In this document: positions 26,201 through 64,000 of the stretch, one piece after another
How positions within the stretch are numbered: the first letter of the stretch is position 1
Layout: each line of letters opens with the position of its first letter
From: Phyllobates terribilis
Lineage: Eukaryota
NCBI RefSeq assembly: GCF_046119375.1
Contig: NW_027362765.1
Span: 434,186,001-434,250,000 of the forward strand
Direction of reading: 5' to 3'
Length of the DNA stretch: 64,000 nucleotides
The notes under the pieces: model-generated
What the model was told of the DNA's origin: nothing
Database searches by the model: none
What the model saw: the letters and a program-made list of their open reading frames with translations, nothing else
Program-made: the position numbers and the translations under genes

Positions 26201-26880
26201 AACATGACCCTCGAATTGTGAGAATTAGAAATAATCCTGACTACTGGGTTGCCACACTGTTAGATCCCCAGTACAAAAGTAAATTTGCAGAAATTATTCC
26301 TGCCATAGAAAGGGATGCACGCATGCAGGAGTATCAGCAGAGACTGTTGCAGAATCTTACATGTGCTTTTCCACAAAATACCAGTGGTGCACGTAGTGAA
26401 TCTCACAGTTCCAACTTGCCAACCGTGGGACCGTCAAGTGTTCAGCACTCAAACCGTAACAGAACCACAGTATCTGCTGGTAACATCAATTTTGCGGAAT
26501 CATTTCACCACTTTTTTAGCCCATCCTTTGCAAGGCCACAGGAGACAAGAAGTCTGACACATAGTCAACGCCTAGAGACGATGGTACAGGAGTATCTCCA
26601 AGTAAACATTGAAGCCACGACTGTGTCACTGGACCCTTGCTCTTTTTGGGCTTCCAATCTGGATAAATGGCCGGAGCTAGCCACTTACGCCTTGGAGATC
26701 TTGTCATGCCCCGCAGCCAGCGTTCTGTCTGAACGTGTGTTCAGCGCTGCTGGTGGTGTGCTGACAGATAAGCGCACGCGGCTCTCCACTGATAATGTAG
26801 ACAGACTCACGTTCATAAAGATGAACAAATCATGGATCCGAAACGACTTTTCTACCCCTGTGTCATCCTGGGGAGAGTAA
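23202..26880 (+). pseudogene. hAT transposase, copy 2, with a single frameshift
   Basis: ORFs 23202-24875 and 24880-26880. A 2-bp loss in the (TG)n run at ~24870 (GTG TGA CAG versus GTG TGT GAC) splits it. Also has a 21-bp in-frame N-terminal deletion. Confidence 0.92.
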
Positions 26881-27204
26881 AAGCTTGATGATTGGTTAAA
26901 ATCACCCTACCAACCGTTTTAAGCTTTCAAATTACTAATCATGTTTATCTGTATCTTGACTGGAAAATAATTTGGGCTTTGTAGCAGTGTGCAGCACTGA
27001 TCCTATTAGGCCATCTATAATAAGCTTCACCAGATTTAAAATTAAAAATAATTTTTAGCTGCATCTAGCCCGGAAAATAATTTTGGGGCTCCGAGATGCG
27101 CAAGACACATAAGTGCCTTCTTGCTGCACTACCTGCAGCATGACCCTCATATTGTCAGAATTCGAAGTAATCATGACTACTGGGTTGCCACACTCTTAGA
27201 TCCC

Positions 27205-28579
27205 CCAAACTTTTCGATCAACCTTTTCATTTTAATAAAGACCAAAAAAATGGTCATTTTTGAAATTATAAGCATTAGCAGGTTGTTAGAAACTGAAATC
27301 AAACAGTTTTCAACTCAAAACTTTATTCTAGGTGATGTTACATTTTCACATAGGACGCCTTGTTCGAAAGGAGCTTCTGAACTCTCTCGTCCATTGAATT
27401 TGTCAGGTTTTGGATGGTTTCTGCTTCAATTGTTTTGCATGAGGACAGAATACCCTCCCAGAGCTGTTGCTTAGATGTGAACTGCCTCCCGCCATCATAG
27501 ACACTCCTTTTAATGATGCTCCAAAGGTTCTGAATGGGGTAGAGGTCAGGGGAGCATGGGGGTCACACCATAAGTTTGTCCCCTTTTATGCCCATATCAG
27601 CCAGAGATGCAGATGTTTTATGTGCAGCATGAGATGGTGCATTATCATGCAGAAAAATGATCTTGCTGTGAAATACACGGTTCTTCTTCTTGAACCATGG
27701 CAGGAAGTGCTGTTTGAGAAAATCCACATACATTATGGAGTTCATCTTTAGCGCCTTCAGGGATCCTAAAGGGGCCGACAATCTCTCTCCCCATGATTCC
27801 AGCCCAAAACATTACTCCACCTCCTCCTTGTTGGCGCTGTAGCCGTGTTTGCGTGGGGTGTCCATCAACCAGCCATCCTCCACTCCATTCATCTGGACCA
27901 TCGAGCGCTGCACGGCACTCATCCGTGAACAAAACAGTTTTGAAATCAGTCTTCATGTAATGTTTGGCCCACTGGAGCCGTTTCTGCTTGTGTGAAGTGG
28001 ATAGAGGAGGTCGACAGGATGGCGTATGCACAGCTGCAAACCTCTGAAGTACCCTGCATCTTGTTGTTTGGGGGACGTTGGAGGCACAAGCAGCTTCAAA
28101 AACTTGTCTGCTGCTATGACAAGGCTTATTTGCCGCTGCTCTTTCAACCTGACGTAATTGCCTGTAGGAAAGAGTCCTCAATTTGCCCTTATCAGCACGC
28201 ACACGTGTGTACTGTGAATCAGCTACATACTTCTTGATTGCCAAGACACTTCATCCTGATCATCGCACAATGTTGATTGTAGTCATGCCTTGACCTAAAC
28301 ACTCCACAATTTGTTGCTTCTCAGCAGCCGACACATCCTTTTTCTTTCCCATTTTGGCAGAAAATGTAGGCTGCTTAATAATGTGAGAGAGCCTTCTTAA
28401 GTAGTCTTGCCTTTCATTGGACACACCTGCCAAACTAATTAGCACAGGTGTCTGCAATTGCTTACAGTGATATAAAGAGCCCTGACACACATCACCATCA
28501 ATGAGTTTAACTGACAAACAAACAAATTCTTCCCTTATCACTCCTAAACACTTTTTGCATAATAATTTGGAACGCGGTG
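27205..28579 (-). mobile_element. DD37E Tc1 element inside hAT copy 2
   Basis: Mirror of 9351-10723. TIR ends at 28579 followed by TA. ORF fragments 28260-28598, 27645-28244 and 27563-27781. Confidence 0.85.
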
Positions 28580-28659
28580 TACATGTGCTTTTCCACAAAA
28601 CACCAGTGGTTCACGTAGTGAATCTTACAGTTCTAACTTGCCAACCGTGGTCTGTATGG

Positions 28660-30472
28660 AATTGTTCAATAAAGGGCCCAAAATTAAGATAACATAGATG
28701 GGAGAGATCTCTATGAATAGGAATTCCTAAGTATTTGATACCCTGTGAGGGCCAGGCAAAGGGAAAGTTGGACTGGATGGAATCCTATATGGATTTAGGG
28801 AGGGAGACATCGAGGGCCTCAGACTTCGCTGCATTGATTTTAAAATTTTACCATGTAACAAAGTGATCTATTTCAGCCATAACAGCAGGGACGGATATAT
28901 GTGATTGAGTGATATATACTAGGACATCATCAGCAAATAGAGAGCACTTGTACTCGGTGCCTCCCACCTCAATCCACCTAATATTGGGGTTATGGCGAAT
29001 TGATGAGAGCAGGTGCTCCGTCACTAGGATGTATAAGAGAGGGGACAGAGGACATCCCTGCCTTGTCCCATTGGTGATTGTGAAAGGTGATGAAAATGTT
29101 CTGACGCACCCCCTGGGCCTTGGGACACCCGGAGCCGGACCCTTTTTGGTGGATGCTGGTGGTTGTAGTCTTCGTGGCGGCGATCCGGTTCCGTGGCTCA
29201 GGGCGGTCAAACCAGTGGCGGAACTATTTATGTGGTTTTGATGTTTAAATGTCCGACTACGCCACCCGTGGATTGCGGTCAGAGTGAACCGCCGCTACAG
29301 GGCAGACCGCTAAGGCTGGTGTTGTGGGTGCAGCAGAGCGTAGCATAACTCCCCACGGGAGGAGTATAGCCTCAGGGCAGTGTATGCGGAGGATGGGGGT
29401 GATGGTGCAGGGCAGCAGCAGTAACGACACGGAGTCAGTGATGCAGTTCAGGGCCTTTACTCACAGTTCTTATTATCCAGACCACGTCTGCAGTAACGGC
29501 TGCCCACGTCGTACTGTGCTCACCAGGTGAGGGGCTCAGACAACTCCCAGATAACTTTGGAGCGCTTCACAGGACCCCCTTTGTGTGTCCTTTGTCTGGC
29601 CTTTCTTACCAACACTTCTGTCCGGCTGCCTCGGGCCTCCTCTTGGTAAACTTGGCGCCAGTTTCCCTGACCCTATGTGGTGCCTTCCTAGCGGGTGGAG
29701 CAAGGGGCTGCGCCACATAAAATGTCAGAGCCTCCGGTTTCTAGCTGAGGGTCGTTTCCTGCCTCCACTAGTTCGGGGACCGGTCTCCCCCTTTGGCCTG
29801 ACCCCTCCACGCAGGTGGATTCGGGCGTGCGGTGGCGACTCGCCCGTCCGCACCCCTGGGATCCCTTCATTCCTCGTTCCTGGAGCCTTCTCCGCTCCTC
29901 TTCCTTCCTTCTCCCTCTTGCAGGCCTGGGCCTCTGTTACTAGGCCCGCCTCCGGAGCAGAGCTCATGCAGAGCCCCTGCTCCCTGCCACTTCTGCTCAG
30001 ACTTCTCTGCACTGAACTAAGATGGTGCCCACCTTTTATACTCCCTTCTCAATGCACCCAGGAACTGCTTCCTCCCTGCTCCTGCACTGCAGGGTTCCCC
30101 TTCCTCAGTGTTCCCTCCCCCCACTCCAGCCAGGGACAGGGACTGTCGTGCCCATCTCAGGGGCATATTGGTCGCCCTGCCCCACGGCAATGTGGTGTAA
30201 TGCATGCAGGTGTCGGGTCCTGATCCACACTCCATCCTTATCTGAGAGTGAGATATCACACCTCTGGGTGAGGTGCAATACGTCTGTAGCAACCGAGCCC
30301 TCGGTGCTACAGTTCCATTTATCTTCAGCCTAGGTGACGTATTGTGATACAGGGCCGTGATTTTGGCTATAAAAGGGGCCCTAGACCCCTACCCCAAGCT
30401 TTTTAAGAGAATCATATATGGCGTGCCAGGAGACTCTATGGAATGCTTTCTCAGCATCCAACGAGAGTATCT
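28660..30472 (-). pseudogene. L1 RT fragment interrupted by a solo LTR (copy 2)
   Basis: GTRQGCPLSPLL...FADD (ORF 28848-29210). Mirror of 7455-9280. Confidence 0.85.
29102..30311 (-). mobile_element. Solo LTR (1210 bp), 4-bp TSD GTTC
   Basis: TGACGCACC...GGTGCTACA, with GTTC at 29098-29101 and 30312-30315. Confidence 0.88.
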
Positions 30473-30581
30473 ACTTACAAATTTTTAACTGCATCTAGCC
30501 CACGAAATACTTTGTGCCTAGTAGCAGTGTCTGCTAGTCAGCGGATTATCCCGGCTGTTAAGCAAGCTACACCACCTGTAG

Positions 30582-30850
30582 TTTGGACACTTAATTTTTT
30601 CAAAGGAAATGCTACGGGACCACGGGATACTTAGTGAAGAGCATCAGGAGGCACCCCAAGGCATAGGGGCTGGGACTGGCACTAGGATGCCTTGCGGTGG
30701 ACAGCCGAGCTCGATACTTATAAAAGCTTTTTAACTGCAGCAGCTTTAGTGGACGCTACTGGAGCTGGAATTACGCGGCTGCTGGCATGAGACTTGCCCT
30801 CCAATAGATCCTTGTAAATGGATTTAAAGTGTATTCATTCAAATTAGAGG
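30582..30850 (-). rRNA. 18S rRNA-derived fragment (degenerate) inside hAT copy 2
   Basis: Reverse complement of the 7075-7343 fragment (CTGGAATTACGCGGCTGCTGGCATGAGACTTGCCCTCCAATAGATCC). Confidence 0.9.
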
Positions 30851-32899
30851 GACAATTTAAATTAAAAAGCTTAGAGCTGCCTCCACCACAGGGGGGCTCT
30901 CTCGACCCACCAGCGGACAGGCACCAGTATTGGGAGAGGGGGGCTGGCCGTCAGGGTTCACCGCGGCTCTGGCACAAACCCGGCGACACGGAGGTGGCAC
31001 GGGCAGGAGCGGACTGGCCGTCTCGGCTTCTCACTTTTTGGATTTTAGAAGGGCATGACATGCCTATATCTATGTCTCCCCCTCCTTTTACTCCTCCACC
31101 TCTTTTCTTTTCGCATGACTATATGTACTTGTCACTTTTCCATGTGTTAGTTGTGTCTTCTGAGCAGTTTGTCAGCTTTTGGACACCTTTGAAGGTGTTT
31201 TCTATGTGTTTCTATGTGTTTTTGTTTGCCTGCCATTGGTTTTAACGGTGTTCGAAGGTGTTCGACGAACAGTTCGACGAACAGTTCGGCGAACACACGG
31301 GTGTTCGACGAACCGAACCGAACTCGAACACTACGGGGGTGGCTCAACACTATTTACCAATTCATCTAAATCCTTAGTGACATATGACTTATTGGTATGT
31401 CTTATGTCGGCCCCTTAAATTTGATGCAGGCCCAGCTCAGCTGTTAATTCGGCTGTTAACCTGTAAAATATTGCTGTCAAGTGTGATTTACAGCAGACAT
31501 CTTGTAAGGCGCGTTGTCCTAACCACACATCAGTAGTGCACTCACAAGGCGATCTTGAGCGGGTGTCAAATAGGTTGTCATGTGGTGCCAGGTATCTGGT
31601 GCCTTATTTATAACAGTTATACTCAGGCTAAAAATACCTGTTACCTCCCATTTAATGTATTGGGGCTGGGACTTTGTCTTGGTTTCCTTTCCAATTTTCC
31701 TCAACCAACTTTCCTTTCTAACGAGTGTTGGGATTTTGCATTTTACCCATTGCCATGATATATATTTACATCTATGCTTTGTATTTGGGCATCCTTTATT
31801 TTCTTTTGGGCAAATTTTTTTTATTCACCTCTTTAGTCACCAAAAATGTGAATTTTTTGGAAACGTGACATTATATTGAACTTTAGTGTGTTCCTTATAG
31901 TGGTGATAATGATTCCTGTGATATCCTTTTTTAACAAGAGAAACATCTGTCTTTATTACATTGAATAAATCATCCACTATCCACACTTTTAAACTCTTTG
32001 TTTAACTCTGTCATCAAAAGAAGGGGTGTCTATAGCCATAATTAAAATAATATCTGTGGAGATAGGGGGCAGTGGGTGCATTCTTCCGCACCAGGGCTCA
32101 TCCCACTGGTGCGGACTCCTTTTCCCATAGGCATAATACTACTCAGACAACACAGGGTGAAAGTAAAACAGTGTGTCAATACTTTATAGAGCCACCAAAC
32201 AGACAATAACATATAGAACATTCCCAGTAAAATACTCAAGATTGTGCAAAGTTACAGAGTCTCACTTTCCACTGACTCACTGGGATTAGAGCAGCTGCGA
32301 ATCTGAGGCTTCCAGAACTGACAACCCCCACTAGTGGCACCACGCTTTTGGCGGGCACCCACAGAGTGGAGGTAATGACAAGCTTAGGAAGCTGACAGTC
32401 CATTTAGGAACTTGGCCAGGCAACAGTATGATGCCCAACCTAGCTACTTTGAACGTCTCCACTGAGCCAGGTCACCGAATTGTCCCAACCTGAATTCTCC
32501 AAATGTATCCCTGGGGGTCAAGTGACTGGAGGTTCAATGTTATTCAATGGAGTAGATATGTGTTATTCCTGCTGGGGCTGTGGTCCCCAAAACTGACATC
32601 CTGTAGAAAGTCAAAACTATATCCCTCTTAATGGAGCCATGTTGTCCTACTTGTTGCTCTGGCAATTCACTCTGATTACTTTTTCAGAACTATAGAAATC
32701 CTTTTTTATACCCACATCTATGTCTCCGGTCATCATCCACAGATCAGGGGGGAGGTGGAATGAGTTTCACTCTCATCGTTTGAGAATTTAATCGATCTAC
32801 ATAGTTTGTTCTTCTCTGTTTTGTGGGTCAACAAGCCACAGGGTCCACACAATGGTCAATCAAAAACATGCATTGTTCACAGACCCTGTAAATATCAAC

Positions 32900-46122: not shown

Positions 46123-46230
46123 ATTACAAATTTTTAACTACATCTAGCCCAGGCAATACTTTGGGCCTAGTAGCAGTGTCTGCTAGTCAGCGGATTATCC
46201 CACCTGTTAAGCAAGCTACACCACCTGTAG

Positions 46231-46420
46231 TTTGGAGACTTAATTTTTTCAAAGGAAATGCTTCGGGCCCACGGGACACTCAGTGAAGAGCATTGGGGAG
46301 GCACCCCAAGTCACAGGGGCTGGGACTGGCGGTAGAACGCCTTGTGGTGGACCGCCAAGCTCGATCCTTATAAAAGCTTTTTAACTGCAGCAGCTTTAGT
46401 GGACGCTACTGGAGCTGGAA
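46231..46420 (-). rRNA. 18S-derived fragment, 3' part (downstream of the Tx1 insertion point), duplicate A
   Basis: ...TTAACTGCAGCAGCTTTAGTGGACGCTACTGGAGCTGGAA abuts the Tx1 3' end. Confidence 0.85.
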
Positions 46421-49400
46421 CTCTTTTTTTATTTTATAGAAAAAGTACAAAAACATAAAACCCCCGCAACACTCCATCAAACCCTCCCCATGTCATATAT
46501 CACCAACAATTTTCCATAACAAAAGAGAGGCTAAGCCGCCAATAAATAACACACAATATGTAAACCCAGAAACTATAACCCCCCCTATGTCATACAATAA
46601 CCAAACTGAAAAGAAATCTAAGCTGCCTTAAAAATAAGCAAGGAACGATACTAAGCATACCATGAAAGTCCCCGCTAGGTCCAGATGAAACTCTAGGTGC
46701 GGGTTCTCCATTCAGAGCCACAGGAGTCCATTGAGTCCGTAAGAGTCCTTGAGAGAGTCCAAGAGAGTCCCAGAGTCCTAGAGTCCGTGAGTCCCCACAT
46801 TAAAGTTTATGCTCGGCTCGGCTCTGCTCCGCTCCACCCCTGCTCTTTTTGCTCCTCTCCTTTGGCCTTGCTACTTTCTTATTCCCTTTCCATTAGCCTC
46901 CTTCCCGGCTCGATGTTCCATATAGGAAGACAAACAGAAAAAGGGGACCGCATTACCATACCTTCAGATCAACCACAGACAACCTTAACACACAGCCTGA
47001 AAATAAAACCTGGTCCATCACCCAACATAACATACCCAACATAAGCATAATAACCACTGTAGAAGAAAAAAAAAACAACCCTAACTGAAACTTAGAACCC
47101 TACATACACACCCATGTGTTGTTGTTTTTTTGTGTTTTTTTTTCTTATTTTTATTTTTTTTTATTTATTTGTTTTTTATTTTTATTTATTTTTATTTTTT
47201 TTCCTACTGGCATAAAATATGACATACACTAATACTACCACATGACAATATTACTACTTAAATAATTTTTTTTTTTTGCGATATCTCGGTGGGGTTTACC
47301 TTCACCCCACCTTATTACCCTACTACCCTACTGCCTTATATGGAATACCTCACAACTTAGCATAATAACTCAACAACTTAACAACATTATAACCTGACTG
47401 ACGACAATCTAACAATTACCACTTACACTTTAAGCCATGGCTCGGTGCTTGCGAGCCCCATACACCTCAGTACTTCTTGAAAACAAAAAGCTACCAGTGA
47501 AAGTTGACAGCCCACCACCGGAAAAGCAGGCACTCTCCCTGATACAAGGAAAAATATAAATATAAACCTACCTTTCCCTTACTATCTATAAAGCTATCCC
47601 TAATTTAAAAGACCTGTCCCTATCTGTCCCTCCCTGCCCCTATCGCCCTATCTACCTCACCTCGTGCCTAACTATCTTTCCCTCCTCTGTCCCTAACTGT
47701 CCCTATGAATATCTCTCCCTACTGCCTAAATACCTGCCCCTACTACTATAAAAATAAAATTAATCTGGCCCTCAAGGCACTTCAAATGAGAGACACGTTG
47801 CAGCATTCCTCATGGGGGCAACCCCGGTCATCGGAATTCCTGTACTTCAAATTGCCCCTTACATACAGCCTCCCGTGAAAGCAGCGCCAGGCCAAGTTCC
47901 AAAACTTCAAGGGGATCCGAGTAGAATTTAACAACCTCAGCCCCACCTCCAGATCCCGACCTGGGCAATCCTTGAGGGCCAGAGGCTTCTGGAAATGGGT
48001 CAACAGAACCCTCCTGTCAAGGAATTTCCTCGGCATGGTTCTGATCTCCCACATTCCCAGACTCCACCGGCGTATCACTTTCAAAACCAGGGTAGCATAA
48101 GCCGGGAGATGCCCGTGCGGTGTGCGTAGGTCCTTCACTCGCCCTCCTGACTCCCATTCCTGGAAGAAGGGTCGAAGCCATCCCCTGCAGGAGAATACCC
48201 ACGGAGGAGCCCTCTCTGGCCAGAGGTTCGCTATGTTGATTTTAAGGAAGGCATTCACTAAGAATACCACCGGGTTGACCATACCCAACCCGCCTAGTCT
48301 CCTCGTACGGTACGTGACCTCTCTTTTGACTAGGTTGAGCCTGTTTCCCCATAACATCTGAAAAAACAGGCCGTAGACCCGTGTCCAAAGAGGCTCTGGC
48401 AAAATGCAGACGCTGCCCAAATAGTTCAGCAAAGGCAGAAGGTAACCCTTGATCAGGTTCACCCGCTCCCTTAGGGTTAAAGTCCAACCCTTCCACTGGT
48501 CCACCTTTTGAGCGGCAATCTTCAGCCTGCCCTCCCAATTTAGCTGGGGGTAATCACCCGGGCCAAAATTGATGCCTAAGATCTTAGCTGTTGGTTGAGG
48601 TTCTGGGAGGGTGTCCGGGAGACCAAAACTAGGGTCTCCCCCTCCCAGCCAGAGACTCTCACACTACTCCTGGTTGATCTTAGACCCAGATGCCTCCGAG
48701 TAGCGGTCAACCTCAGACATCACCCAGTCCGCCTCCTCTTTCGAGGATACAAACAAGGAGACATCATTGGCATATGCCACTGCCCTCCAGGTGGCCTCTG
48801 GAGCCGCCTGGTCCATCCGGACTCCTGCCAACGGTCCACCCTCGATCCTCCTTAAAAAGGGGTCGATTGCGAACACGTATAACAGCGAGCTCAACGGACA
48901 GCCCTGGCGAACCCCAGCTTCCACCTCAAAAGGGCGGCCAGACCAACCAACGCTATCATAAGCCAGCCAGCCATTGGAGCCTCCCCGGTCACGTAATCTT
49001 GTGACGGTGTTGAAGTCCCCTCCAAAGACCACCTGCCGACTCGTAAAAAGATAGGGCTTGATCTTCAGGAAGAGACATTTGCGGTCCCACTTTCATTGGG
49101 GACCGTAGATGTTTATGAGCCGAAGCTCCTGTCCCCCCATGAAGACGTCTAAAACCAAGCACCTTCCCATTTCTACTTCGATAACCCTCTGGCATTCTAC
49201 CGCTGCGGTCTTATAAAGGACCGCCACCCCGCTATACGGCTCGGCCGTAAGAGACCAGTATGAGGGCCCACACCTCCACTCACTCCTTGCCTTGTGAATG
49301 GCCCCCATGTCCGTTAGTCTGGTCTCCTGCAAAAATAAAATTTCAGCCTCAAACCGGGTGAGAAAATCAAATGCCGTAAATTTAGCCGCATCTGATTTTA

Positions 49401-50683
49401 TGCTGGCAACATTAATGGACGCCAGCGTCAACGGGGTGGGTGCAGCCATTGGGTGATCGAATTAGATGGCTTTCGTCTTCCCTCCACCCCCCTCACCGTC
49501 CGACAAAGACCCCTTGCTGTCACGCTCACGGCGTTTGAGGGACACTGTCATATCCATAGAACCCCCCCTCCCCTTTCTACCTCACCCCCAGGTTCAGGGA
49601 CAGTCCCTCCCCCAGTGGAAGATGGTATACCCCCTGAGGGAAGGACTTTGCTGTCCCCCACAGGCCCCTCAGGTGGCTCCCCCAGCTCTTTGCCCTCGAC
49701 CCCCGCCACATCAGGGTCCTTGAGGACTCCAAACCGGTTGGAGACAGAGATCAGAGGGGAGATCGTGGAGCCTTCCGCCGGCACCTTGCTGGTCAGGGGG
49801 GGGGACAGATTTTTTAACCCCCTTCCCATTGATCTTCCTCTTCCTCCTTCGCCTTTTTTTGGGGTTTCACTGTCACCCTTTGCTGTAGGCTGCGCAACCT
49901 CGTCCTCCTCAACACTTTCATATTGGGAGGAATCTGAAAGCGGAGCCGCCTCCTCCCTCTCCATCCTCCTGGTCTCTTCGCTCAGCGCCTCCTCCCCCAG
50001 GGCCTCAGTGGCACCGGTCGAGACCCCTGGAGGGGGGACAGTCATCACACCAGTTGCCTGGGGATCCCCCTGCCCTTCCCCAACCAGGCGCCTCTCCTGC
50101 CTCCGATGATAAGAGGGGCCCCGGACCTTCCTGTTCTTCACTGGCCCCTCAGCCCCCTCGCTTCCACCAGCCCCAGGCTCAGCAGAGGGTGCACTGCCAG
50201 GATCCACCCCAACACGGCCACCCTCCGCCTGACCAAAGACGGCGTTGGCGAAAGAACGAGGGCAGCAACTGAACGGATGCCCGACGGCATCACACAGGTG
50301 GCACCGAACCGTACCACAGGAGGCGGCGAGATGGCATATCCCACCACACAGGGTGCATTTCTGCACCCTGCATGCTGCACTAAAGTGCGTGGGATCACCG
50401 CACCTGTGGCACACTTTCGGCTGCCCCTGGTAGAAAACCAGGATCCTGTCCCTCCCAAGGAAAGCCGAGGAAGGGATGTGGGTGACAGTGCCGCCGGACC
50501 TCTTCAACCTCATCATGAAGGTCCAGCCCCCTGACCAAATGCCCTCATCCATTATTTTTTTTGGAACCTCCACCACTTCTCCATGCCTACTGAGCCAAGT
50601 CATAATGTTGACTCCTGAAAGTGACTCATTGCATGTCAGCACGGTCACCTTCTTGGGCCCATTCTGGCGGGATATCGCCTCAG
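46421..50683 (-). mobile_element. Tx1-clade non-LTR retrotransposon, partial duplicate A (5'-truncated, 1380-bp internal deletion)
   Basis: Offset 4556 bp from copy B. The junction GACCAACCA|ACGCTATC at ~48948 removes B 53506-54885. Ends in ORF1 at CGCCTCAG (50683). Confidence 0.9.
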
Positions 50684-50786: not shown

Positions 50787-50976
50787 TTTGGAGACTTAAT
50801 TTTTTCAAAGGAAATGCTTCGGGCCCACGGGACACTCAGTGAAGAGCATTGGGGAGGCACCCCAAGTCACAGGGGCTGGGACTGGCGGTAGAACGCCTTG
50901 TGGTGGACCGCCAAGCTCGATCCTTATAAAAGCTTTTTAACTGCAGCAGCTTTAGTGGACGCTACTGGAGCTGGAA
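50787..50976 (-). rRNA. 18S-derived fragment, 3' part, duplicate B
   Basis: No differences seen versus 46231-46420. Confidence 0.85.
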
Positions 50977-52327
50977 CTCTTTTTTTATTTTATAGAAAAA
51001 GTACAAAAACATAAAACCCCCGCAACACTCCATCAAACCCTCCCCATGTCATATATCACCAACAATTTTCCATAACAAAAGAGAGGCTAAGCCGCCAATA
51101 AATAACACACAATATGTAAACCCAGAAACTATAACCCCCCCTATGTCATACAATAACCAAACTGAAAAGAAGGCTAAGCTGCCTTAAAAATAAGCAAGGA
51201 ACGATACTAAGCATACCATGAAAGTCCCCGCTAGGTCCAGATGAAACTCTAGGTGCGGGTTCTCCATTCAGAGCCACAGGAGTCCATTGAGTCCGTAAGA
51301 GTCCTTGAGAGAGTCCAAGAGAGTCCCAGAGTCCTAGAGTCCGTGAGTCCCCACATTAAAGTTTATGCTCGGCTCGGCTCTGCTCCGCTCCACCCCTGCT
51401 CTTTTTGCTCCTCTCCTTTGGCCTTGCTACTTTCTTATTCCCTTTCCATTAGCCTCCTTCCCGGCTCGATGTTCCATATAGGAAGACAAACAGAAAAAGG
51501 GGACCGCATTACCATACCTTCAGATCAACCACAGACAACCTTAACACACAGCCTGAAAATAAAACCTGGTCCATCACCCAACATAACATACCCAACATAA
51601 GCATAATAACCACTGTAGAAGAAAAAAAAAACAACCCTAACTGAAACTTAGAACCCTACATACACACCCATGTGTTGTTGTTTTTTTGTGTTTTTTTTTC
51701 TTATTTTTATTTTTTTTTATTTATTTGTTTTTTATTTTTATTTATTTTTATTTTTTTTCCTACTGGCATAAAATATGACATACACTAATACTACCACATG
51801 ACAATATTACTACTTAAATAATTTTTTTTTTTTGCGATATCTCGGTGGGGTTTACCTTCACCCCACCTTATTACCCTACTACCCTACTGCCTTATATGGA
51901 ATACCTCACAACTTAGCATAATAACTCAACAACTTAACAACATTATAACCTGACTGACGACAATCTAACAATTACCACTTACACTTTAAGCCATGGCTCG
52001 GTGCTTGCGAGCCCCATACACCTCAGTACTTCTTGAAAACAAAAAGCTACCAGTGAAAGTTGACAGCCCACCACCGGAAAAGCAGGCACTCTCCCTGATA
52101 CAAGGAAAAATATAAATATAAACCTACCTTTCCCTTACTATCTATAAAGCTATCCCTAATTTAAAAGACCTGTCCCTATCTGTCCCTCCCTGCCCCTATC
52201 GCCCTATCTACCTCACCTCGTGCCTAACTATCTTTCCCTCCTCTGTCCCTAACTGTCCCTATGAATATCTCTCCCTACTGCCTAAATACCTGCCCCTACT
52301 ACTATAAAAATAAAATTAATCTGGCCC

Positions 52328-55300
52328 TCAAGGCACTTCAAATGAGAGACACGTTGCAGCATTCCTCATGGGGGCAACCCCGGTCATCGGAATTCCTGTA
52401 CTTCAAATTGCCCCTTACATACAGCCTCCCGTGAAAGCAGCGCCAGGCCAAGTCCCAAAACTTCAAGGGGATCCGAGTAGAATTTAACAACCTCAGCCCC
52501 ACCTCCAGATCCCGACCTGGGCAATCCTTGAGGGCCAGAGGCTTCTGGAAATGGGTCAACAGAACCCTCCTGTCAAGGAATTTCCTCGGCATGGTTCTGA
52601 TCTCCCACATTCCCAGACTCCACCGGCGTATCACTTTCAAAACCAGGGTAGCATAAGCCGGGAGATGCCCGTGCGGTGTGCGTAGGTCCTTCACTCGCCC
52701 TCCTGACTCCCATTCCTGGAAGAAGGGTCGAAGCCATCCCCTGCAGGAGAATACCCACGGAGGAGCCCTCTCTGGCCAGAGGTTCGCTATGTTGATTTTA
52801 AGGAAGGCATTCACTAAGAATACCACCGGGTTGACCATACCCAACCCGCCTAGTCTCCTCGTACGGTACGTGACCTCTCTTTTGACTAGGTTGAGCCTGT
52901 TTCCCCATAACATCTGAAAAAACAGGCCGTAGACCCGTGTCCAAAGAGGCTCTGGCAAAATGCAGACGCTGCCCAAATAGTTCAGCAAAGGCAGAAGGTA
53001 ACCCTTGATCAGGTTCACCCGCTCCCTTAGGGTTAAAGTCCAACCCTTCCACTGGTCCACCTTTTGAGCGGCAATCTTCAGCCTGCCCTCCCAATTTAGC
53101 TGGGGGTAATCACCCGGGCCAAAATTGATGCCTAAGATCTTAGCTGTTGGTTGAGGTTCTGGGAGGGTGTCCGGGAGACCAAAACTAGGGTCTCCCCCTC
53201 CCAGCCAGAGACTCTCACACTACTCCTGGTTGATCTTAGACCCAGATGCCTCCGAGTAGCGGTCAACCTCAGACATCACCCAGTCCGCCTCCTCTTTCGA
53301 GGATACAAACAAGGAGACATCATTGGCATATGCCACTGCCCTCAAGGTGGCCTCTGGAGCCGCCTGGTCCATCCGGACTCCTGCCAACGGTCCACCCTCG
53401 ATCCTCCTTAAAAAGGGGTCGATTGCGAACACGTATAACAGCGAGCTCAACGGACAGCCCTGGCGAACCCCAGATTCCACCTCAAAAGGGCGGCCAGACC
53501 AACCATTCACCAGCGGGAAAGTCTCAGCCCCTGCATACAATGCCTTTAACCAATTTACGAACCCCCCGGGCAGACCGTACCTCAAAAGGACAGACCAGAG
53601 GTAGTCGTGGTTCACCCGATCAAACGCCTTTGCCTGATCTAGGGACAGCAGAAACCCCTTCCAGAGTCCAGCCCTACCCTACTCCACTGCCTCCCGGACA
53701 CCGAGTACAGCACTAAATGTGCTGCGGCCTGGAACAGAGCAATGCTGGGACCCGGAAAGGAGCCGGGGCGCAAATTTCACCAGCCGATTAAAGAGCACCC
53801 TTGCCAGAACCTTCCAGTCCGTATTGAGAAGCGCTATTTGACGCCAGTTCTCAATACGGGACGAGTCCTTACCCTTTGACAGGATAATCAGGGCAGACCT
53901 CCTCATTGAACGGGGAAGAGCACCCGAGGAAAGGCACTCGTTGAACACCTCCGTCAAGAGGGGGACCAAGGAGTACCTAAAGGTCTTATAAAATTCAGAC
54001 GTTAAGCCGTCTGGACCTGGCGATTTCTTGAGCAAAAGCCCATCAATGGCCAGTCTCACTTCCTCTCCCCTGATTGCCTCAGTCAAAGCGCTGAGAGAGG
54101 GGTCATCCCCTGGCTCAGGAACGGCTTCGGCCAGGAAAGTCGACGTCACGTCTCGATCTAGTTCCGTCTTTCCCAAGAGGCGTGAGTAGAACGACCTGAT
54201 GACTTCCAGGATCCCTGATTTGGATCTGTTCAGGGAACCTATACTATCGATCAGGCCGGTCACTACTTTACGATTCACTGACATCTTACAGTTTCTGTAG
54301 GGGTCAGGCGAGCGGTACTTCCCGAAATCCCTCTCAAAAACCAAAGATGTGTGTCTATCATACTGACTCCTCTTGAGCAAAGACTTCACTCTGGAGATCT
54401 CCTCACGGTCACCTCCAGTCGAGACAAGCTGTTCGAGTTTCCTCCTCAGGCTCTGGTACAGGCGGTACCTGCTCAGGCTCCTGAGGCTAGAGAGCTGGCG
54501 GAAGAAACTCGCAACCCGATCTTTGAACATCTCCCACCACTCAGACTTAGTGCTACACAGATCCAACAGCGGTACCTGGCTCTGAAGAAAATCCTCAAAG
54601 GATTGTCTCACCTCCGCTTCTTCCAGCAGTGACGAATTCAGCTTCCATAGTCCTCTCCCCATCCGGGGGGTTTCTGAAACATTCAAGGAAAAGAAAATTA
54701 GACAGTGATCGGAGAATTCCACCTCCACAGCGGACACTGCTGAAGAGACGGCCTCCTCCTTTAAAAAAAACCTGTCTATTCTAGACCTACAACTACCCCT
54801 ATAATAGGTGAAACCACTGTGACCTGGGGTGTGCCGGATGTGTACATCCACCAGGCGAGCATCACTAGCTATGCTATTCAGAGTCACGCTATCATAAGCC
54901 AGCCAGCCATTGGAGCCTACCCGGTCACGTAATCTTGTGACGGTGTTGAAGTCCCCTCCAAAGACCACCTGCCGACTCGTAAAAAGATAGGGCTTGATCT
55001 TCAGGAAGAGACATTTGCGGTCCCACTTTCATTGGGGACCGTAGATGTTTATGAGCCGAAGCTCCTGTCCCCCCATGAAGACGTCTAAAACCAAGCACCT
55101 TCCCATTTCTACTTCGATAACCCTCTGGCATTCTACCGCTGCGGTCTTATAAAGGACCGCCACCCCGCTATACGGCTCGGCTGCAAGAGACCAGTATGAG
55201 GGCCCACACCTCCACTCACTCCTTGCCTTGTGAATGGCCCCCATGTCCGTTAGTCTGGTCTCCTGCAAAAATAAAATTTCAGCCTCAAACCGGGTGAGAA

Positions 55301-55385
55301 AATCAAAGGCCGTAAATCTAGCCGCATCTGATTTTATGCTGGCAACATTAATGGACGCCAGCGTCAACGGGGTGGGTGCAGCCAT
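52328..55385 (-). pseudogene. Tx1 ORF2 (AP endonuclease, RT, zf-RVT) with nonsense mutations
   Basis: SINVASIK...FLQET...GGDFN...SRIDRF...SDH; KKSPGPDGLTSEFY; DQAKAFDRVNH; QGCPLS; YANDVS (YADD mutated); LAWRCFHGRL...RGCP. Three in-frame stops and a C-terminal deletion before SFEVP*. Confidence 0.92.
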
Positions 55386-55399
55386 TGGGTGATCGAATT

Positions 55400-58300
55400 A
55401 GATGGCTTTCGTCTTCCCTCCACCCCCCTCACCGTCCGACAAAGACCCCTTGCTGTCACGCTCACGGCGTTTGAGGGACACTGTCATATCCATAGAACCC
55501 CCCCTCCCCTTTCTACCTCACCCCCAGGTTCAGGGACAGTCCCTCCCCCAGTGGAAGATGGTATACCCCCTGAGGGAAGGACTTTGCCGTCCCCCACATG
55601 CCCCTCAGGTGGCTCCCCCAGCTCTTTGCCCTCGACCCCCGCAACATCAGGGTCCTCGAGGACTCCAAACCGGTTGGAGACAGAGATCAGAGGCGAGATC
55701 GTGGAGCCTTCCGCCGGCACCTTGCTGGTCAGGGGGGAGACAGATTTTTTAACCCCCTTCCCATTGATCTTCCTCTTCCTCCTTCGCCTTTTTTTGGGGT
55801 TTCACTGTCACCCTTTGCTGTAGGCTGCGCAACCTCGTCCTCCTCAACACTTTCATATTGGGAGGAATCTGAGAGCGCAGCCGCCTCCTCCCTCTCCATC
55901 CTCCTGGTCTCTTCGCTCAGCGCCTCCTCCCCCAGGGCCTCAGTGGCACCGGTCGAGACCCCTGGAGGGGGGACAGTCATCACATCAGTTGCCTGGGGAT
56001 CCCCCTGCCCTTCCCCAACCAGGCGCCTCTCCTGCCTCCGATGATAAGAGGGGCCCCGGACCTTCCTGTTCTTCACTGGCCCCTCAGCCCCCTCGCTTCC
56101 ACCAGCCCCAGGCTCAGCAGAGGGTGCACTGCCAGGATCCACCCCAACACGGCCACCCTCTGCCTGACCAAAGACGGCGTTGGCGAAAGAACGAGGGCAG
56201 CAACTGAACGGATGCCCGACGGCATCACACAGGTGGCACCGAACCGTACCACAGGAGGCGGCGAGATGGCCTATCCCACCACACAGGGTGCATTTCTGCA
56301 CCCTGCATGCTGCACTAAAGTGCGTGGGATCACCGCACCTGTGGCACACTTTCGGCTGCCCCTGGTAGAAAACCAGGATCCTGTCCCTCCCAAAGAAAGC
56401 CGAGGAAGGGATGTGGGTGACAGTGCCGCCGGACCTCTTCAACCTCATCATGAAGGTCCAGCCCCCTGACCAAATGCCCTCATCCATTATTTTTTTTGGA
56501 ACCTCCACCACTTCTCCATGCCTACTGAGCCAGGTCATAATGTCGACTCCTGAAAGTGACTCATTGCATGTCAGCACGGTCACCTTCTTGGGCCCATTCT
56601 GGCGGGATATCGCCTCAGCGACGAGACCCCACCAACCGGGCGTCTCCTTTGCCAGCTCGTAGTTCGACGAAAAAAGCTCCATGCCCTCCGGCCGAACAAA
56701 GCTAACATCAAAGATGGGGGTGCCAAAAGGATGTATCAGGGCAAAGATGTCATTCGCCCTGAAACCCATCTCCAGGAGGAGCTTCACCACCCTTGATCTT
56801 GATGGGCACGCATCATCACCCCTCCACCGGAGACGGACCACATTCCTCCTGGACTCCCCCCGCCCGGCTGTAGGGAGAGACCATACAGTCTCTCCCCCCC
56901 TTTTCTCTTGGAAGGCGGCCTGTCCGAATTTGTCCAACCAAAAAGACAGGTCCACATCCCTCCCCTCTACTGAGATCGTCCGATCCCCACGCCTCAGGGC
57001 CTGCACGAGACCGCGATAGAAATCTCCGTCTCCTGAGCCTGAAGGTGAGGAAGACCCCACCACAGCCCCAGAAAAATTCAAAACATTGCCTGCAGGGGGC
57101 GATGGACCGGCCCCCCCACTGTCACCACTCACCCCTCTTGTATCACCTCTCACATTGCCCCCCCCCTGGCAGGGCTGGCCATTCCTCCATTTCTATACAC
57201 TCCCCATTCTCTCCAATCACACTTCCACCTAAACCCTCATCCACACCATGCGTTTTTTCCCCTCCCCCCATATTATTCACACCCTGCGTTCTCCCTGCTC
57301 CACTTACAGGTGCAGCCCCTTTCTCTGCTCTTCCCTTGCCGGTGTTGTTACTTCCTGGACTTTTGCTTGGGAGATTCTGGCTGGTTGCCGCTTTAAGATT
57401 TTTCTCGCGTACTGCCACTTTAAGGGATTCACAGCCACTGCTGGAAATAGGTACACCCAGCTTTCCAGCAGAGCATGCAGCAGCAACAGCCAGCTCAGCA
57501 GCAGAACATTCCTCCTGCACTCCATGCTGCAGGACATCGAGCCCTGAGGGAGCAGCCACTGCCGAGGACCCTGCCGACCCAGGTGACAAAATGCCAACAG
57601 GGGACCCCGAAGGTGCGACCCCCCCCCCACCCTGTGGCTGGGGGCGGGACTTCCATGTTTACTACTTTGGATGTTTTTGATGTTATTTTCACCTCATTTG
57701 CACTGCACATGTCCTTTACTTTAACCGGCACCGGGGTCCCTGCCACCACAGGTGGTACAAGGCTGGCAGGAGACCCTGGCAGCACCGCACCCCCTGCCGG
57801 GGTTGCAATCAGGGACGCGGCCAGCTGTGTTGCCACGGTTTTAACTCTTAAGCTCCCGCCCTTACATATTGTCGGCGCCGAGGCCCCTGCGGCCCCAGAT
57901 TGTGGCAGGCACACAGGGGACCCCGGAAACACCGCCCCCACCGCCGGTGGTGCGGTCCGGGACACGGCCGGCTGTACCTCAGCCACGACACTCCTCTCGC
58001 CCTTTGATGTTACCGGCGCCAAGGCCCCCGCAGCCCCAGGTGGAAGCGGGCTCACAGGAGGCCCCGGCTGGCCGGCCCCCACTGCCGAGGGTGCGGGCGG
58101 GGGTAGGATGGCGGCGGCTATCACGGCCGACCCCTTGCTCTCACTAGTTGGCCCCAGGGCCCCCGCAGACCCAGTAGATGACACACTTGCCAGGGACCCC
58201 GGCAGCACAACCTCCCCCACCAAGGTGGGGTCGCGGGTCAGCCGGACCTCCGGCACCATCCTCATGTTAGGTCCCTTTCCCCCATCCATGCTACGATCAG

Positions 58301-59332
58301 CATGGATGGTAGCCTTCACCGTGATTACATTTCTCTTCCCGCCCCCTTGCACTTGGCCCACACCAGAACCCAGGCCGGGGTGGGTAGTGGGCACATAGTG
58401 GGACCGGGGGATCCCAGGAAGGGGGACATAGACAAGTTTTTCCTCCATTCTGATCTTATTCTAACCTTTTTTATTCCTCCCTTTCCCAGTTGCCTCTTCC
58501 AGGCAGCCCTCCTCCCCAAATGTAAGCTGGGAGAAATCCACTCCCGGGGACTCGAGCTGCCGGATCTGGCGCATGAGTCAACCCCCCTTGCTACCACTGT
58601 CACTACTCCCATCATCATCCTCCACACTGCTGGCATCCGATGGGAGCGCGACTTGGTGATGATCTAATTGCCCACTATGTGTGACCTGGTGATCACTTAC
58701 CAGGTCCCCCCAGGCAGGCTGTCCGGCTTCTCCTCCTCCATAGCAGATTCCCCAGCCTCCTCCTCCTCTGCCTGGGTCGAGCGGCCAGACCCCTCTAGCG
58801 CCCCTCTGGCGGCGGTGGTGGTGGTAGTGGTTATTCCCAAGAACCTCTCATCGTTGTCAAGTTTCTCTTGGAAGGGACCGGCATTAGCCTGAATCTCTTG
58901 CTTCCTCTTCTGCAAGGCCTTTATTGAGCTTTTCAGCTCCTTTACTTTAGCTGACAGGGCCAAGCTAGGGCCACGAGATGCGCTGTTTGCTGCTAGCTGA
59001 GCACACCGCAGCTCCTCCCGAAGCCGCCTCAAGGTCTTTATGGCTTCCCCGTGTTCACTGAGGTACATGTCCAGGCGAGAGCCGAAGGTGGAAGTTGGCT
59101 CCCCCTCAGCCTGGACACCCCAGTCCTTATGGACGGCCATTGTACTCCGGCAAGCACCAGGCTCTTCCCCAGGAGGAGAGATCTGTCCCACTTGCGGCCC
59201 GGCTACGGCCCCGGCTGGTACCCTGCCGCTCCTCTTTGCCTGTTTAGCCTCCTTGGCCTTAGCCTCCATCGCTCTCACATCTTTGGCTTTTCCTTCCTTG
59301 GCCTTTTTGGCCTTAGAGGTGCTGCCTTTCAT
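55400..59332 (-). pseudogene. Tx1 ORF1 (~1300 codons, frameshifted; coiled coil, low-complexity spacer, ZCCHC3-like RRM/CCHC module)
   Basis: Successive ORFs 58697-59332, 58325-58636, 57495-58448, 57143-57589 and 55729-57153. RRNVVRLRW...FDVSF...CHRCGDPTHFSAAC..CTLCGGIGHLAASC..CHLCDAVGHPFSCC. Confidence 0.75.
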
Positions 59333-59581
59333 TGTAGGGGCTCAGTACAAAATAAAGTCACCATAAAGTTCAAAAATAAAGTCCAAAAACAGGACTCCCA
59401 CCCCCGGTATAAACCGAGGGGTGGAAGACGGGGACAAGCCCCACTGCTGTCCTCAACCACCCTCCCTCTCCTGGATCCAAGAGGGGGGGGTCCTTCCAGG
59501 TGAAAAACAAGCCTCACGGCCCAGGAGCTCTTCAGTCCACCACCTCTCTCCTCAGCTGCAGTCCACACACTGACACACCCA

Positions 59582-59668
59582 GGAATTACCGCAGCTGCTG
59601 GCATCAGACTTGCCCTCCAATAGATCCTTGTAAATGGATTTAAAGTGTACTCATTCAAATTACAGAGA
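59582..59668 (-). rRNA. 18S-derived fragment, 5' part (upstream of the Tx1 insertion point)
   Basis: The minus strand reads CTGTAATTTGAATGAGTACACTTTAAATCC...GGATCTATTGGAGGGCAAGTCTGATGCCAGCAGCTGCGGTAATTCC. Confidence 0.9.
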
Positions 59669-59938
59669 CAATTTAAATTAAAGAGCTTAGACCTGCCTCC
59701 ACCGCAGGGGGGCTCGCTCGACCCACCAGCGGACAGGCACCAGAATTGGGAGAAGGGGGCTGGCCGTCATGGTCCACCGCAGCTCTGGCACAAACCCGGC
59801 GACACGGAGGTCGCATGGGCAGGAACGGACTGGCCGTGTCAGCTTCGCACTTTTTTGGTTTTAGAAGGGCATGACATGCCCTTATCTGTGTCTCCCCCTC
59901 CTTTTACTCCTCCACCTCTTTTCTTTTCGCGTGACTAT

Positions 59939-62101: not shown

Positions 62102-62603
62102 TAGTGTTGAGCCACCCCCGTAGTGTTCGAGTTCGGTTCGGTTCGTCGAACACCCGTGTGTTCGCCGAACTGTTCGTCGAACTGTTCGTCGAACACCTTC
62201 GAACACCGTTAAAACCAATGGCAGGCAAACAAAAACACATAGAAACACATAGAAAACACCTTCAAAGGTGTCCAAAAGCTGACAAACTGCTCAGAAGACA
62301 CAACTAACACATGGAAAAGTGACAAGTACATATAGTCATGCGAAAAGAAAAGAGGTGGAGGAGTAAAAGGAGGGGGAGACACAGATATAGGCATGTCATG
62401 CCCTTCTAAAATCCAAAAAGTGAGAAGCCGAGACGGCCAGTCCGCTCCTGCCCGTGCCACCTCCGTGTCGCCGGGTTTGTGCCAGAGCCGCCGTGAACCC
62501 TGACGGCCAGCCCCCCTCTCCCAATACTGGTGCCTGTCCGCTGGTGGGTCGAGAGAGCCCCCCTGTGGTGGAGGCAGCTCTAAGCTTTTTAATTTAAATT
62601 GTC

Positions 62604-62872
62604 CCTCTAATTTGAATGAATACACTTTAAATCCATTTACAAGGATCTATTGGAGGGCAAGTTTCATGCCAGCAGCCGCGTAATTCCAGCTCCAGTAGCG
62701 TCCACTAAAGCTGCTGCAGTTAAAAAGCTTTTATAAGGATCGAGCTCGGCTGTCCACCGCAAGGCATCCTAGTGCCAGTCCCAGCCCCTATGCCTTGGGG
62801 TGCCTCCTGATGCTCTTCACTAAGTATCCCGTGGTCCCGAAGCATTTCCTTTGAAAAAATTAAGTGTCCAAA
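62604..62872 (+). rRNA. 18S rRNA-derived fragment (degenerate) inside hAT copy 4
   Basis: Same fragment as 7075-7343. Confidence 0.9.
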
Positions 62873-63143
62873 CTACAGGTGGTGTAGCTTGCTTAACAGC
62901 CGGGATAATCCGCTGACTAGCAGACACTGCTACTAGGCACAAAGTATTTCCTGGGCTAGATGCAGTTAAAAATTTGTAAGTAGATACTCTCGTTGGATGC
63001 TGAGAAAGCATTCCATAGAGTCTCCTGGCACGCCATATATGATTCTCTTAAAAAGCTTGGGGTAGGGGTCTAGGGGACCCTTTTATAGCCAAAATCACGG
63101 CCCTGTATCACAATACGTCACCTAGGCTGAAGATAAATGGAAC

Positions 63144-64000
63144 TGTAGCACCGAGGGCTCGGTTGCTACAGATGTATTGCACCTCACCCAGAGGTGTGAT
63201 ATCTCACTCTCAGATAAGGATGGAGTGTGGATCAGGACCCGACACCTGCATGCATTACACCACATTGCCGTGGGGCAGGGCGACCAATATGCCCCTGAGA
63301 TGGGCACGACAGTCCCTGTCCCTGGCTGGAGTGGGGGGAGGGAACACTGAGGAAGGGGAACCCTGCAGTGCAGGAGCAGGGAGGAAGCAGTTCCTGGGTG
63401 CATTGAGAAGGGAGTATAAAAGGTGGGCACCATCTTAGTTCAGTGCAGAGAAGTCTGAGCAGAAGTGGCAGGGAGCAGGGGCTCTGCATGAGCTCTGCTC
63501 CGGAGGCGGGCCTAGTAACAGAGGCCCAGGCCTGCAAGAGGGAGAAGGAAGGAAGAGGAGCGGAGAAGGCTCCTGGAACGAGGAATGAAGGGATCCCAGG
63601 GGTGCGGACGGGCGAGTCGCCACCGCACGCCCGAATCCACCTGCGTGGAGGGGTCAGGCCAAAGGGGGAGACCGGTCCCCGAACTAGTGGAGGCAGGAAA
63701 CGACCCTCAGCTAGAAACCGGAGGCTCTGACATTTTATGTGGCGCAGCCCCTTGCTCCACCCGCTAGGAAGGCACCACATAGGGTCAGGGAAACTGGCGC
63801 CAAGTTTACCAAGAGGAGGCCCGAGGCAGCCGGACAGAAGTGTTGGTAAGAAAGGCCAGACAAAGGACACACAAAGGGGGTCCTGTGAAGCGCTCCAAAG
63901 TTATCTGGGAGTTGTCTGAGCCCCTCACCTGGTGAGCACAGTACGACGTGGGCAGCCGTTACCTGCAGACGTGGTCTGGATAATAAGAACTGTGAGTAAA
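63144..64000 (+). mobile_element. Solo LTR inside hAT copy 4 (partial)
   Basis: GAAC|TGTAGCACC at 63140-63152, the same insertion point as in copies 1 and 2. Confidence 0.85.

What the first reader, a model, noticed from the sequence alone, without database searches (positions are those of the whole stretch)
50973..59668. Tx1-clade retrotransposon inserted exactly at the conserved helix-18 motif of an 18S rRNA sequence: candidate 18S-targeting element
Seen: in rRNA-sense orientation the locus reads ...GCCAGCAGCTGCGGTAA[TTCC]-T-GGGTGTGTCAG...8.6-kb element...AATAAAAAAAGAG-[TTCC]AGCTCCAGTAGCG. This is a clean insertion with a 4-bp duplication, co-oriented with the rRNA strand, beside one of the most conserved SSU motifs (530-loop equivalent). 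Known: Tx1-clade APE elements are often sequence-specific for multicopy targets (Mutsu in 5S, Keno in U2, Dewa in tRNA spacers, Tx1L in Tx1D), and rDNA-specific elements such as R1/R2 insert co-oriented with rRNA transcription. Inference: this family natively targets 18S rDNA at this position. I cannot confirm whether this site has been reported. There is only one independent event in the window.
Basis: partly seen in the sequence, partly recalled or inferred. Interest (0 to 1): 0.85.

Follow-up and report, generated by a model that had tools for sequence, protein, structure and literature searches.

The report
Retrotransposons targeting transposon-borne 18S rRNA fragment
In this (likely frog) genome, about eleven related retrotransposon families sit at one exact base of an 18S rRNA gene fragment that a DNA transposon has spread to some 59,000 places, likely by many independent targeted insertions; whether they also enter real rRNA genes is untested.

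Summary
It is a roughly 270-bp 18S-derived piece near one end of a hAT DNA transposon, with at least 58,700 exact empty sites genome-wide.

Targeting is real. 79 of 80 3' ends of two Tx1-like subfamilies, and 20 of 20 further loci from about nine other families, lie at the same nucleotide. There are 536 exact junctions (control 1). Nearest Tx1 copies differ by about 2.4% while their hAT flanks differ by 6-7%, often in different hAT subtypes, so most insertions are independent.

The TTCC 'duplication' is likely microhomology with the element's own 5' end: 47 of 70 5' junctions lack three target bases instead.

No junction with genuine 18S sequence was found, but the searchable assembly holds no rDNA, so native rDNA targeting is untested. 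A young sister family has moved to a non-rRNA site in another hAT that shares a core of about 10 nt.

Verdict: a new variant of transposon-targeting Tx1 elements; ancestral or present 18S rDNA targeting has a probability of about 0.3.

The parts
50977..59581 (-). Tx1-like non-LTR retrotransposon, near full length, decayed (subfamily 's1')
55398..59332 (-). ORF1 region, broken into several frames; two ZCCHC3-like RNA-binding domains and a CCHC knuckle in the 55729-57192 piece
52350..55385 (-). ORF2 residues 1-1012 of 1132 (APE endonuclease + reverse transcriptase), three in-frame stops; a 341-bp deletion removes most of the C-terminal zinc-binding part
   Evidence: intact copy L062 has APE, RT and a weak zf-RVT match
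50977..52349 (-). 3' UTR ending in AATAAAAAAAGAG
59582..59661 (-). Upstream half of the 18S-derived segment (Rfam model about 508-586); TTCC at 59582-59585 is shared by target and element start
50790..50976 (-). Downstream half of the 18S-derived segment (model about 583-780)
59582..59938 (-). Host hAT copy, outer part (hAT positions 234-589), cut at 59938 by the end of another hAT-like element
46128..50683 (-). Local tandem duplication of part of the element (with an internal deletion) and its 3' flank; second 3' junction at 46420
   Evidence: 99.8% and 98.8% identity
45513..46420 (-). Host hAT copy continuing (subtype B, without the solo LTR)
6573..16335 (.). Complete hAT copy A with an empty site; 8-bp target duplication GTCTATAG (6565-6572, 16336-16343); imperfect TIRs
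11050..14754 (-). hAT transposase frame, 1234 aa stop to stop, BED finger + hAT dimerisation domain
7080..7345 (+). Empty 18S-derived segment in hAT copy A; its site carries the one-G deletion variant (7141-7158)
7615..8828 (.). Solo-LTR-like insert (TG..CA ends, GAAC on both sides) that defines hAT subtype A; label inferred
8829..10600 (+). Further passengers in the same hAT end: fragment of an unrelated reverse transcriptase and a decayed Tc1-like transposase
21004..31352 (.). hAT copy B, empty site (one-G deletion variant)
62102..64000 (.). hAT copy C, partial in the window, empty site (one-G deletion variant)

Best explanation
The element belongs to a radiation of about eleven Tx1-like LINE families that sit at one nucleotide of an 18S-derived segment carried by an abundant hAT transposon, and they likely got there by repeated, independent target-primed reverse transcription directed by their APE endonuclease. 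Shown: same site in 99 of 100 loci, several hAT subtypes used, fixed 3' junction, mostly full-length copies. Inferred: the endonuclease nicks the bottom strand at about GGTAA|TTCC. The RNA runs on into the downstream target sequence and pairs with the nicked primer, which would explain the invariant tail. The top strand is usually opened after GCGG, so three target bases are lost. In some events the element's own 5' start (CACTTCC) anneals to the target's TTCC and mimics a duplication. The hAT acts as a safe, self-renewing landing pad. The 18S piece is most likely one of several passengers that the hAT picked up.
For: Element-side searches: 80 3' ends (39 s1, 41 s2), all with hAT flank, 79 at the same base. 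536 exact junctions, control 1; 20 of 20 sampled new ones belong to about nine other 3'-UTR groups, ORF2 74-95% identical, same site. Both subfamilies occur in hAT subtypes A, B and C, which also exist empty. Nearest-neighbour Tx1 distance 2.4% against flank distance 6.3% and 7.0%; the flank is more diverged in 29 of 29 and 27 of 27 copies; the neighbour sits in a different hAT type in 14 and 22 of them. Tail ends in A5-9GAG in 90 of 100. A sister family nested in the radiation uses a non-rRNA site in another hAT with the shared core A|TTCCAG(C/T)TC. Precedent for Tx1 families that target DNA transposons: PMC4494074.
Against: No biochemical test. Almost no 5'-truncated copies, which is unusual for retrotransposition and is what hitchhiking would give. 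In s1 the Tx1 and flank distances correlate weakly (rho 0.14, p 0.018; s2 -0.05, p 0.83), and seven CAC-junction s1 copies (six in hAT type C, one unclassified) form a clade, so some copying by the hAT or by segmental duplication occurred (L079/L080; the window copy and L037). One contig of a run guessed to be RNA ends in poly(A) before the GAG, which does not fit read-through. The site falls in the most conserved block of a segment that is only about 3% of the hAT, which this reading leaves to chance.
Confidence: 0.62

Rival explanations
1. The lineage is, or was, a true 18S rDNA-targeting Tx1 element. A hAT captured the piece of 18S that contains its site and so handed it tens of thousands of harmless decoy targets, on which it radiated. 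Insertions in real rDNA are rare, purged or unassembled.
For: The site lies in a 27-nt block identical to the Rfam consensus, so real rDNA would carry the whole recognisable core. The element is co-oriented with rRNA sense. The 18S-like site is the ancestral state of the radiation by parsimony, and a Bufo gargarizans protein groups with one of the site-using families (support 0.93, FastTree), so the specificity may be older than the hAT subtypes sampled. RNA genes are common Tx1 targets (U2, U5, 5S). A related pattern is published for YURE elements in U2-derived satellites.
Against: 0 of 100 flanks are genuine 18S. The genuine downstream 18-mer has 2 hits in 10.6 Gb, both without an element. 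A sister family moved readily to a non-rRNA site in another hAT. The 18S piece lies among other captured debris. The Bufo protein is a partial, chimeric gene model and its flank could not be read.
Confidence: 0.3
2. One or a few old insertions were multiplied passively as cargo of the hAT (hitchhiking), without ongoing targeting.
For: Copies are nearly all full length with the same tail; a few pairs share flanks.
Against: About eleven families whose 3' UTRs do not group together share the site while their flanks are mostly 87-95% like the reference hAT. Flanks are older than the elements in every nearest-neighbour pair tested. Filled sites span three hAT subtypes.
Confidence: 0.04
3. Specificity comes mainly from something other than DNA sequence read by the endonuclease, such as tethering to proteins or transcripts at the hAT end, with only a short motif fixing the exact base.
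For: The core shared by the two known targets is only about 10 nt, too short to explain 100 of 100 hAT flanks; both targets are hAT subterminal regions.
Against: The two sites lie at opposite ends relative to the transposase and are not significantly alignable (180, 17 and 51 of 500 shuffles reach the scores). RNA-target pairing can supply the missing specificity.
Confidence: 0.04

Closest known systems
Tx1L of Xenopus laevis (inserts in Tx1D, a non-autonomous piggyBac)
   Same: APE-type LINE confined to one site of a DNA transposon family (PMC4494074, passages).
   Different: Host is a hAT with intact-transposase members; the site is rRNA-derived; about eleven families share it; usually a 3-nt target loss, where Tx1L is recalled to make a 23-bp duplication (recalled; PMC85248 not held).
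Crocodilian Tx1-Mar and Tx1-9_AMi (Mariner-N4_AMi and Harbinger targets)
   Same: Several Tx1 families preferring one abundant DNA transposon, near its end (PMC4494074 sections 14 and 15).
   Different: Here specificity is to the nucleotide in 99 of 100 loci, the transposon is a hAT, and the target is a captured 18S piece.
Keno (U2), Mutsu (5S) and other RNA-gene-targeting Tx1 families
   Same: Target sequence is a conserved RNA-gene motif.
   Different: No insertion in a functional gene copy was seen; no 18S-targeting Tx1 turned up in the literature searches.
R7 (R1 clade, Anopheles) and R8 (R2 clade, Hydra), 18S rDNA-specific
   Same: Non-LTR elements with an 18S target (R8: PMC5035012 passage; R7Ag: reference title in PMC7265360).
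   Different: Other clades and hosts. Their exact 18S positions could not be read, so whether the site coincides is open.
YURE / Utopia in U2-derived satellites
   Same: RNA-gene-specific lineage found in a repeat derived from the gene (PMC4640811 section 8).
   Different: Restriction-like endonuclease; occasional insertion; the repeat is a satellite, not a mobile DNA transposon.

Membership tests
Tx1 clade of non-LTR retrotransposons | ORF2 with N-terminal APE endonuclease, RT and C-terminal zinc-binding region | tested here: met
   on intact copy L062 (zf-RVT below the curated cut-off); on the window copy
Tx1 clade of non-LTR retrotransposons | ORF1 with RNA-binding domains and CCHC knuckles (feature recalled) | tested here: met
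   PF23057, PF23058 and weak PF00098
Tx1 clade of non-LTR retrotransposons | RT phylogeny groups it with named Tx1 families rather than L1 | tested here: inconclusive
   No tree with named Repbase families was possible. phmmer scores: fugu Q76B34 401 bits (recalled to be a Tx1-clade element), a protein named YTX2 285 bits, human L1 ORF2p 231 bits.
Sequence-specific non-LTR element | Independent copies share one flank and one junction | tested here: met
Sequence-specific non-LTR element | Endonuclease cleaves the target selectively | not testable with these tools
   needs a biochemical assay
rDNA-specific elements (R1/R2/R7/R8 type) | Copies inside genuine rDNA units | tested here: inconclusive
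   0 of 100 flanks; but no rDNA unit is searchable in the assembly, and the read tool leaves out human-like records and cut its tables
rDNA-specific elements (R1/R2/R7/R8 type) | Co-oriented with rRNA sense at a conserved position | tested here: met
   (in the derived fragment only)
rDNA-specific elements (R2 type) | 5' self-cleaving ribozyme | tested here: not met
   no Rfam match other than SSU rRNA in 44000-64000 at E<=0.01; undescribed ribozymes would be missed
hAT superfamily (host element) | Transposase with BED finger and hAT dimerisation domain, short TIRs, 8-bp target duplication | tested here: met
   (copy A)

The most novel reading that the evidence does not exclude
A vertebrate 18S-rDNA-targeting Tx1 lineage escaped from the rDNA when a hAT transposon captured its landing site and multiplied it about 59,000-fold. 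The LINEs radiated on this mobile decoy. The hAT then spread a one-base deletion at the cut site (46,586 exact copies; the young haplotype that goes with it was in none of 100 filled flanks), and the surviving active family switched to another hAT and now builds self-targeted 9-kb tandem arrays: a transposon-on-transposon arms race seeded by an rRNA fragment.
Probability: 0.25. Interest if true: 0.8.

Novelty: new variant of a known kind. Interest (0 to 1): 0.58.

Why it matters
It gives a natural record, in one genome, of an APE-type LINE lineage holding single-nucleotide specificity across families 74-95% identical in ORF2, and of one target switch with only about 10 nt of shared core. That makes the determinants of target choice in Tx1 elements directly testable with intact natural copies.

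If the enzyme also cuts genuine 18S, it would be a vertebrate 18S-specific retrotransposon. None was found in the searches made here, and it would bear on rDNA-directed gene insertion, now based on R2.

Separately, tens of thousands of dispersed 18S fragments holding a universal-primer region (primer location recalled) could mislead rDNA copy-number estimates, FISH and 18S amplicon work in these animals.

Tried and rejected
Genuine rDNA in the own genome: the Rfam-family search gave no answer, a 27-nt motif gave 0 hits, and an 18-nt motif gave 2 hits, an old hAT variant and a 24-nt scrap.

Viral and prokaryote collections held no relative and no 18S core. A metagenome scan for the CAC junction gave 14 matches, none with 18S or element context.

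Reads: no RNA holder on record; 4 of 24 runs laid, all contigs. No element-to-genuine-18S joint was among the rows shown, but tables were cut and human-like records are left out, so this is no evidence. Two other organisms (B, C) hold the hAT 18S piece.

A whole-protein search of the own genome with a distant Xenopus relative gave no answer. A maximum-likelihood tree did not finish, so FastTree was used.

Rejected: TTCC as a true target-site duplication; hitchhiking as the main process; homology between the second hAT target and the 18S piece; hAT subtype B as a deletion (it lacks a solo-LTR-like insert).

Literature: nine searches ran; none described an 18S- or hAT-targeting Tx1 or an 18S-carrying frog hAT. 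Repbase and most subscription papers are not searchable, and the supplement of PMC4494074, which may list further Tx1 targets, could not be read. Earlier scan notes: none.
Full report
1. The observation. The two junctions are in the sequence as described. Between them lies an 8.6-kb LINE on the minus strand. ORF1 is broken into several frames and carries ZCCHC3-like RNA-binding domains and a CCHC knuckle. ORF2 has APE and RT domains, three in-frame stops and a 341-bp deletion near its end. Rfam's eukaryotic SSU model matches the upstream flank, and the break falls between model positions 582 and 583 (counted). A second 3' junction at 46420 belongs to a local tandem duplication. The host is likely a frog: the named hits among the 19 proteins above 44% identity to ORF2 are all anuran. 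The assembly has 10.6 Gb.

2. The flank is a transposon, not rDNA. The same 18S-like segment occurs three more times in the window, uninterrupted, inside copies of a 9.8-kb hAT element with a BED/hAT transposase, short TIRs and an 8-bp target duplication. The segment covers about model 508-780. It sits near the end downstream of the transposase, among other passengers: a fragment of an unrelated RT, a Tc1-like transposase and, in subtype A, a solo-LTR-like insert. Exact empty sites number 12,143 with the intact core and 46,586 with a one-G deletion; both controls gave 0.

3. Specificity. A search with the element's last 324 bases scored 40 of 40 candidates. A second subfamily turned up through the 5' end, and its 3' end scored 40 of 42 candidates. 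Together these gave 80 distinct 3' ends, 39 s1 and 41 s2. All are followed by the hAT, 79 at the same base; one has a deletion across the junction. The junction pattern has 536 exact hits against 1 for the control. I fetched 20 hits not yet seen, all from the first part of contig C1. All 20 have the hAT flank and fall into about nine further 3'-UTR groups. ORF2 is 74-95% identical to the intact s2 copy in the 18 with substantial ORF2 in view; 15 show the upstream half-site too, and the rest are interrupted or out of range.

4. Independent insertions or hitchhiking. Both subfamilies occur in hAT subtypes A, B and C (s1 3/22/11, s2 4/25/11, 4 unclassified), and all three subtypes also occur empty (19/6/3 of 30). 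Haplotypes 20 or more bases from the junction follow the hAT subtype on both sides. After dropping 4 rows per subfamily (poor alignment or known duplicates), 29 s1 and 27 s2 copies remained. Their nearest-neighbour element distance is 2.4% and the distance of the same pairs' flanks 6.3% and 7.0%; the flank is the more diverged in all 56. Against this reading: s1 shows a weak correlation of element and flank distances (rho 0.14, p 0.018), seven CAC-junction s1 copies (six of hAT type C) form a clade, two pairs are duplicates, and canonical 5'-truncated copies are missing. Of 14 unpaired 3' ends one is the window's duplicate; among the 13 others examined, none joins an internal position to the intact upstream half-site, and two join it to hAT sequence 140-215 bases further out. 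The window copy and L037, 145 kb away, are duplicates of one insertion.

5. Junction mechanics (inferred from sequence). The tail is fixed: A5-9GAG in 90 of 100. Of 70 5' junctions 47 read GCGG then CACTTCC, with the target's TAA gone; 14 read GAA and 6 TAA before TTCC. Other families start with GACTTCC, TACTTCC or CAGGAAG at the same place. The s1 GAA and most s1 TAA copies form one clade across hAT subtypes. Ten of the 14 GAA junctions also carry a T eight bases upstream that is rare elsewhere (7 of the first 100 empty sites). This suggests that a few upstream target bases are copied from the donor, which would also explain why copies are full length. One contig of a run guessed to be RNA ends in poly(A) before GAG, a weak point against 3' read-through.

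6. History. In an ORF2 tree (39-40 rows, FastTree) the site-using families form one clade that includes a Bufo gargarizans protein next to L233 (support 0.93); Xenopus, Pelobates and Leptobrachium proteins lie outside. Nested inside it is a young family with intact ORF2, units 96.6-99.6% identical and 9,644 first-look candidates for the whole lineage, that forms 9-kb head-to-tail arrays. Its target is a subterminal site of a different hAT with no Rfam match. The two targets share A|TTCCAG(C/T)TC and are otherwise not significantly alignable. The young hAT haplotype marker was in 19 of 30 intact-site empties and 5 of 6 deletion-variant empties, but in 0 of 100 filled flanks. Deletion-variant copies differ by 1.9% (n=6), the youngest s1 clade by 2.8%, so later timing explains the gap as well as resistance does.

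7. Genuine 18S. No flank is genuine 18S. The genuine downstream motif has two hits in the assembly, neither in rDNA nor behind an element, and a longer motif has none, so rDNA is unassembled or withheld and the test is open. The hAT site matches the Rfam consensus over 27 nt around the break, so real rDNA would be a plausible substrate. That the site lies in this block, in a segment that is about 3% of the hAT, is the best argument for an rDNA origin. The ready switch to a non-rRNA hAT site and the precedent of transposon-targeting Tx1 families argue the other way. I put ancestral or present rDNA targeting at about 0.3. Flanks of relatives in other species could not be read, which leaves this open.

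8. Literature. PMC4494074 (passages and sections 14, 15; supplements not held) describes Tx1L in Tx1D, Tx1-Mar, Tx1-9_AMi in Harbinger, and U2, U5, 5S, satellite and microsatellite targets. PMC5035012 (passages) gives R8 in 18S and says no R2 had been identified from amphibians. PMC4640811 (passages and section 8) gives YURE in U2-derived satellites. PMC10946416 (passages), a 2024 review of rDNA and transposons, has no occurrence of 'Tx1'. PMC7265360 and PMC8869645 were seen as passages, PMC5340908 as a search listing only. The Tx1L, R7Ag and R8 primary papers were not held. Nine searches found no report of this site or this hAT; Repbase could not be searched.

9. Verdict. A real and strong site-specific system: a Tx1-like radiation parasitising an 18S-derived landing site on a hAT transposon. 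It works like Tx1L and Tx1-Mar. It cannot be filed as an rDNA-specific element, because copies in rDNA were not shown. New variant of a known kind; interest 0.58.

Noticed in passing
G000 C5:143.63-143.69 Mb (L283-L290), C5:416.32-416.37 Mb (L291-L296) and many more: A young, intact sister LINE family forms 9-kb head-to-tail arrays of six or more units; each unit carries a roughly 28-nt target-like leader, so new copies likely insert at earlier ones. Its native target is a subterminal site of another hAT.
   Followed up: partly
window 7141-7158, 30767-30784, 62670-62687; genome-wide: 79% of exact empty sites (46,586 of 58,729) lack one G at the inferred top-strand cut; the young haplotype that goes with it was in none of 100 filled flanks. 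Escape variant or later burst.
   Followed up: partly
window 7455-10600: The hAT end collects passengers: 18S piece, a fragment of an unrelated RT split by a solo-LTR-like insert, a Tc1-like transposase, and 110-bp tandem units.
   Followed up: partly
L303 (G000:C9:249432957-249435974): An older type-C hAT variant whose 18S piece is closer to the Rfam consensus (83 bits); useful for dating the capture.
   Followed up: no
L304 (G000:C12:128317285-128320302): A 24-nt scrap of the same 18S motif near a solo-LTR-like element, with no hAT or rDNA around it.
   Followed up: no
L180, L188: Two s2 copies are interrupted by an LTR-like element at nearby positions (1019 and 1230 of the element).
   Followed up: no
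G000:C1:969.75-969.80 Mb (L026, L027, L199): Three tandem 19-kb repeats each holding a filled hAT: local amplification of one insertion.
   Followed up: no
window 33204-33517 and 17745-20803 / 33900-36959: An inverted-repeat element of about 314 bp, and a 3-kb segment present twice at 96% identity; not examined.
   Followed up: no
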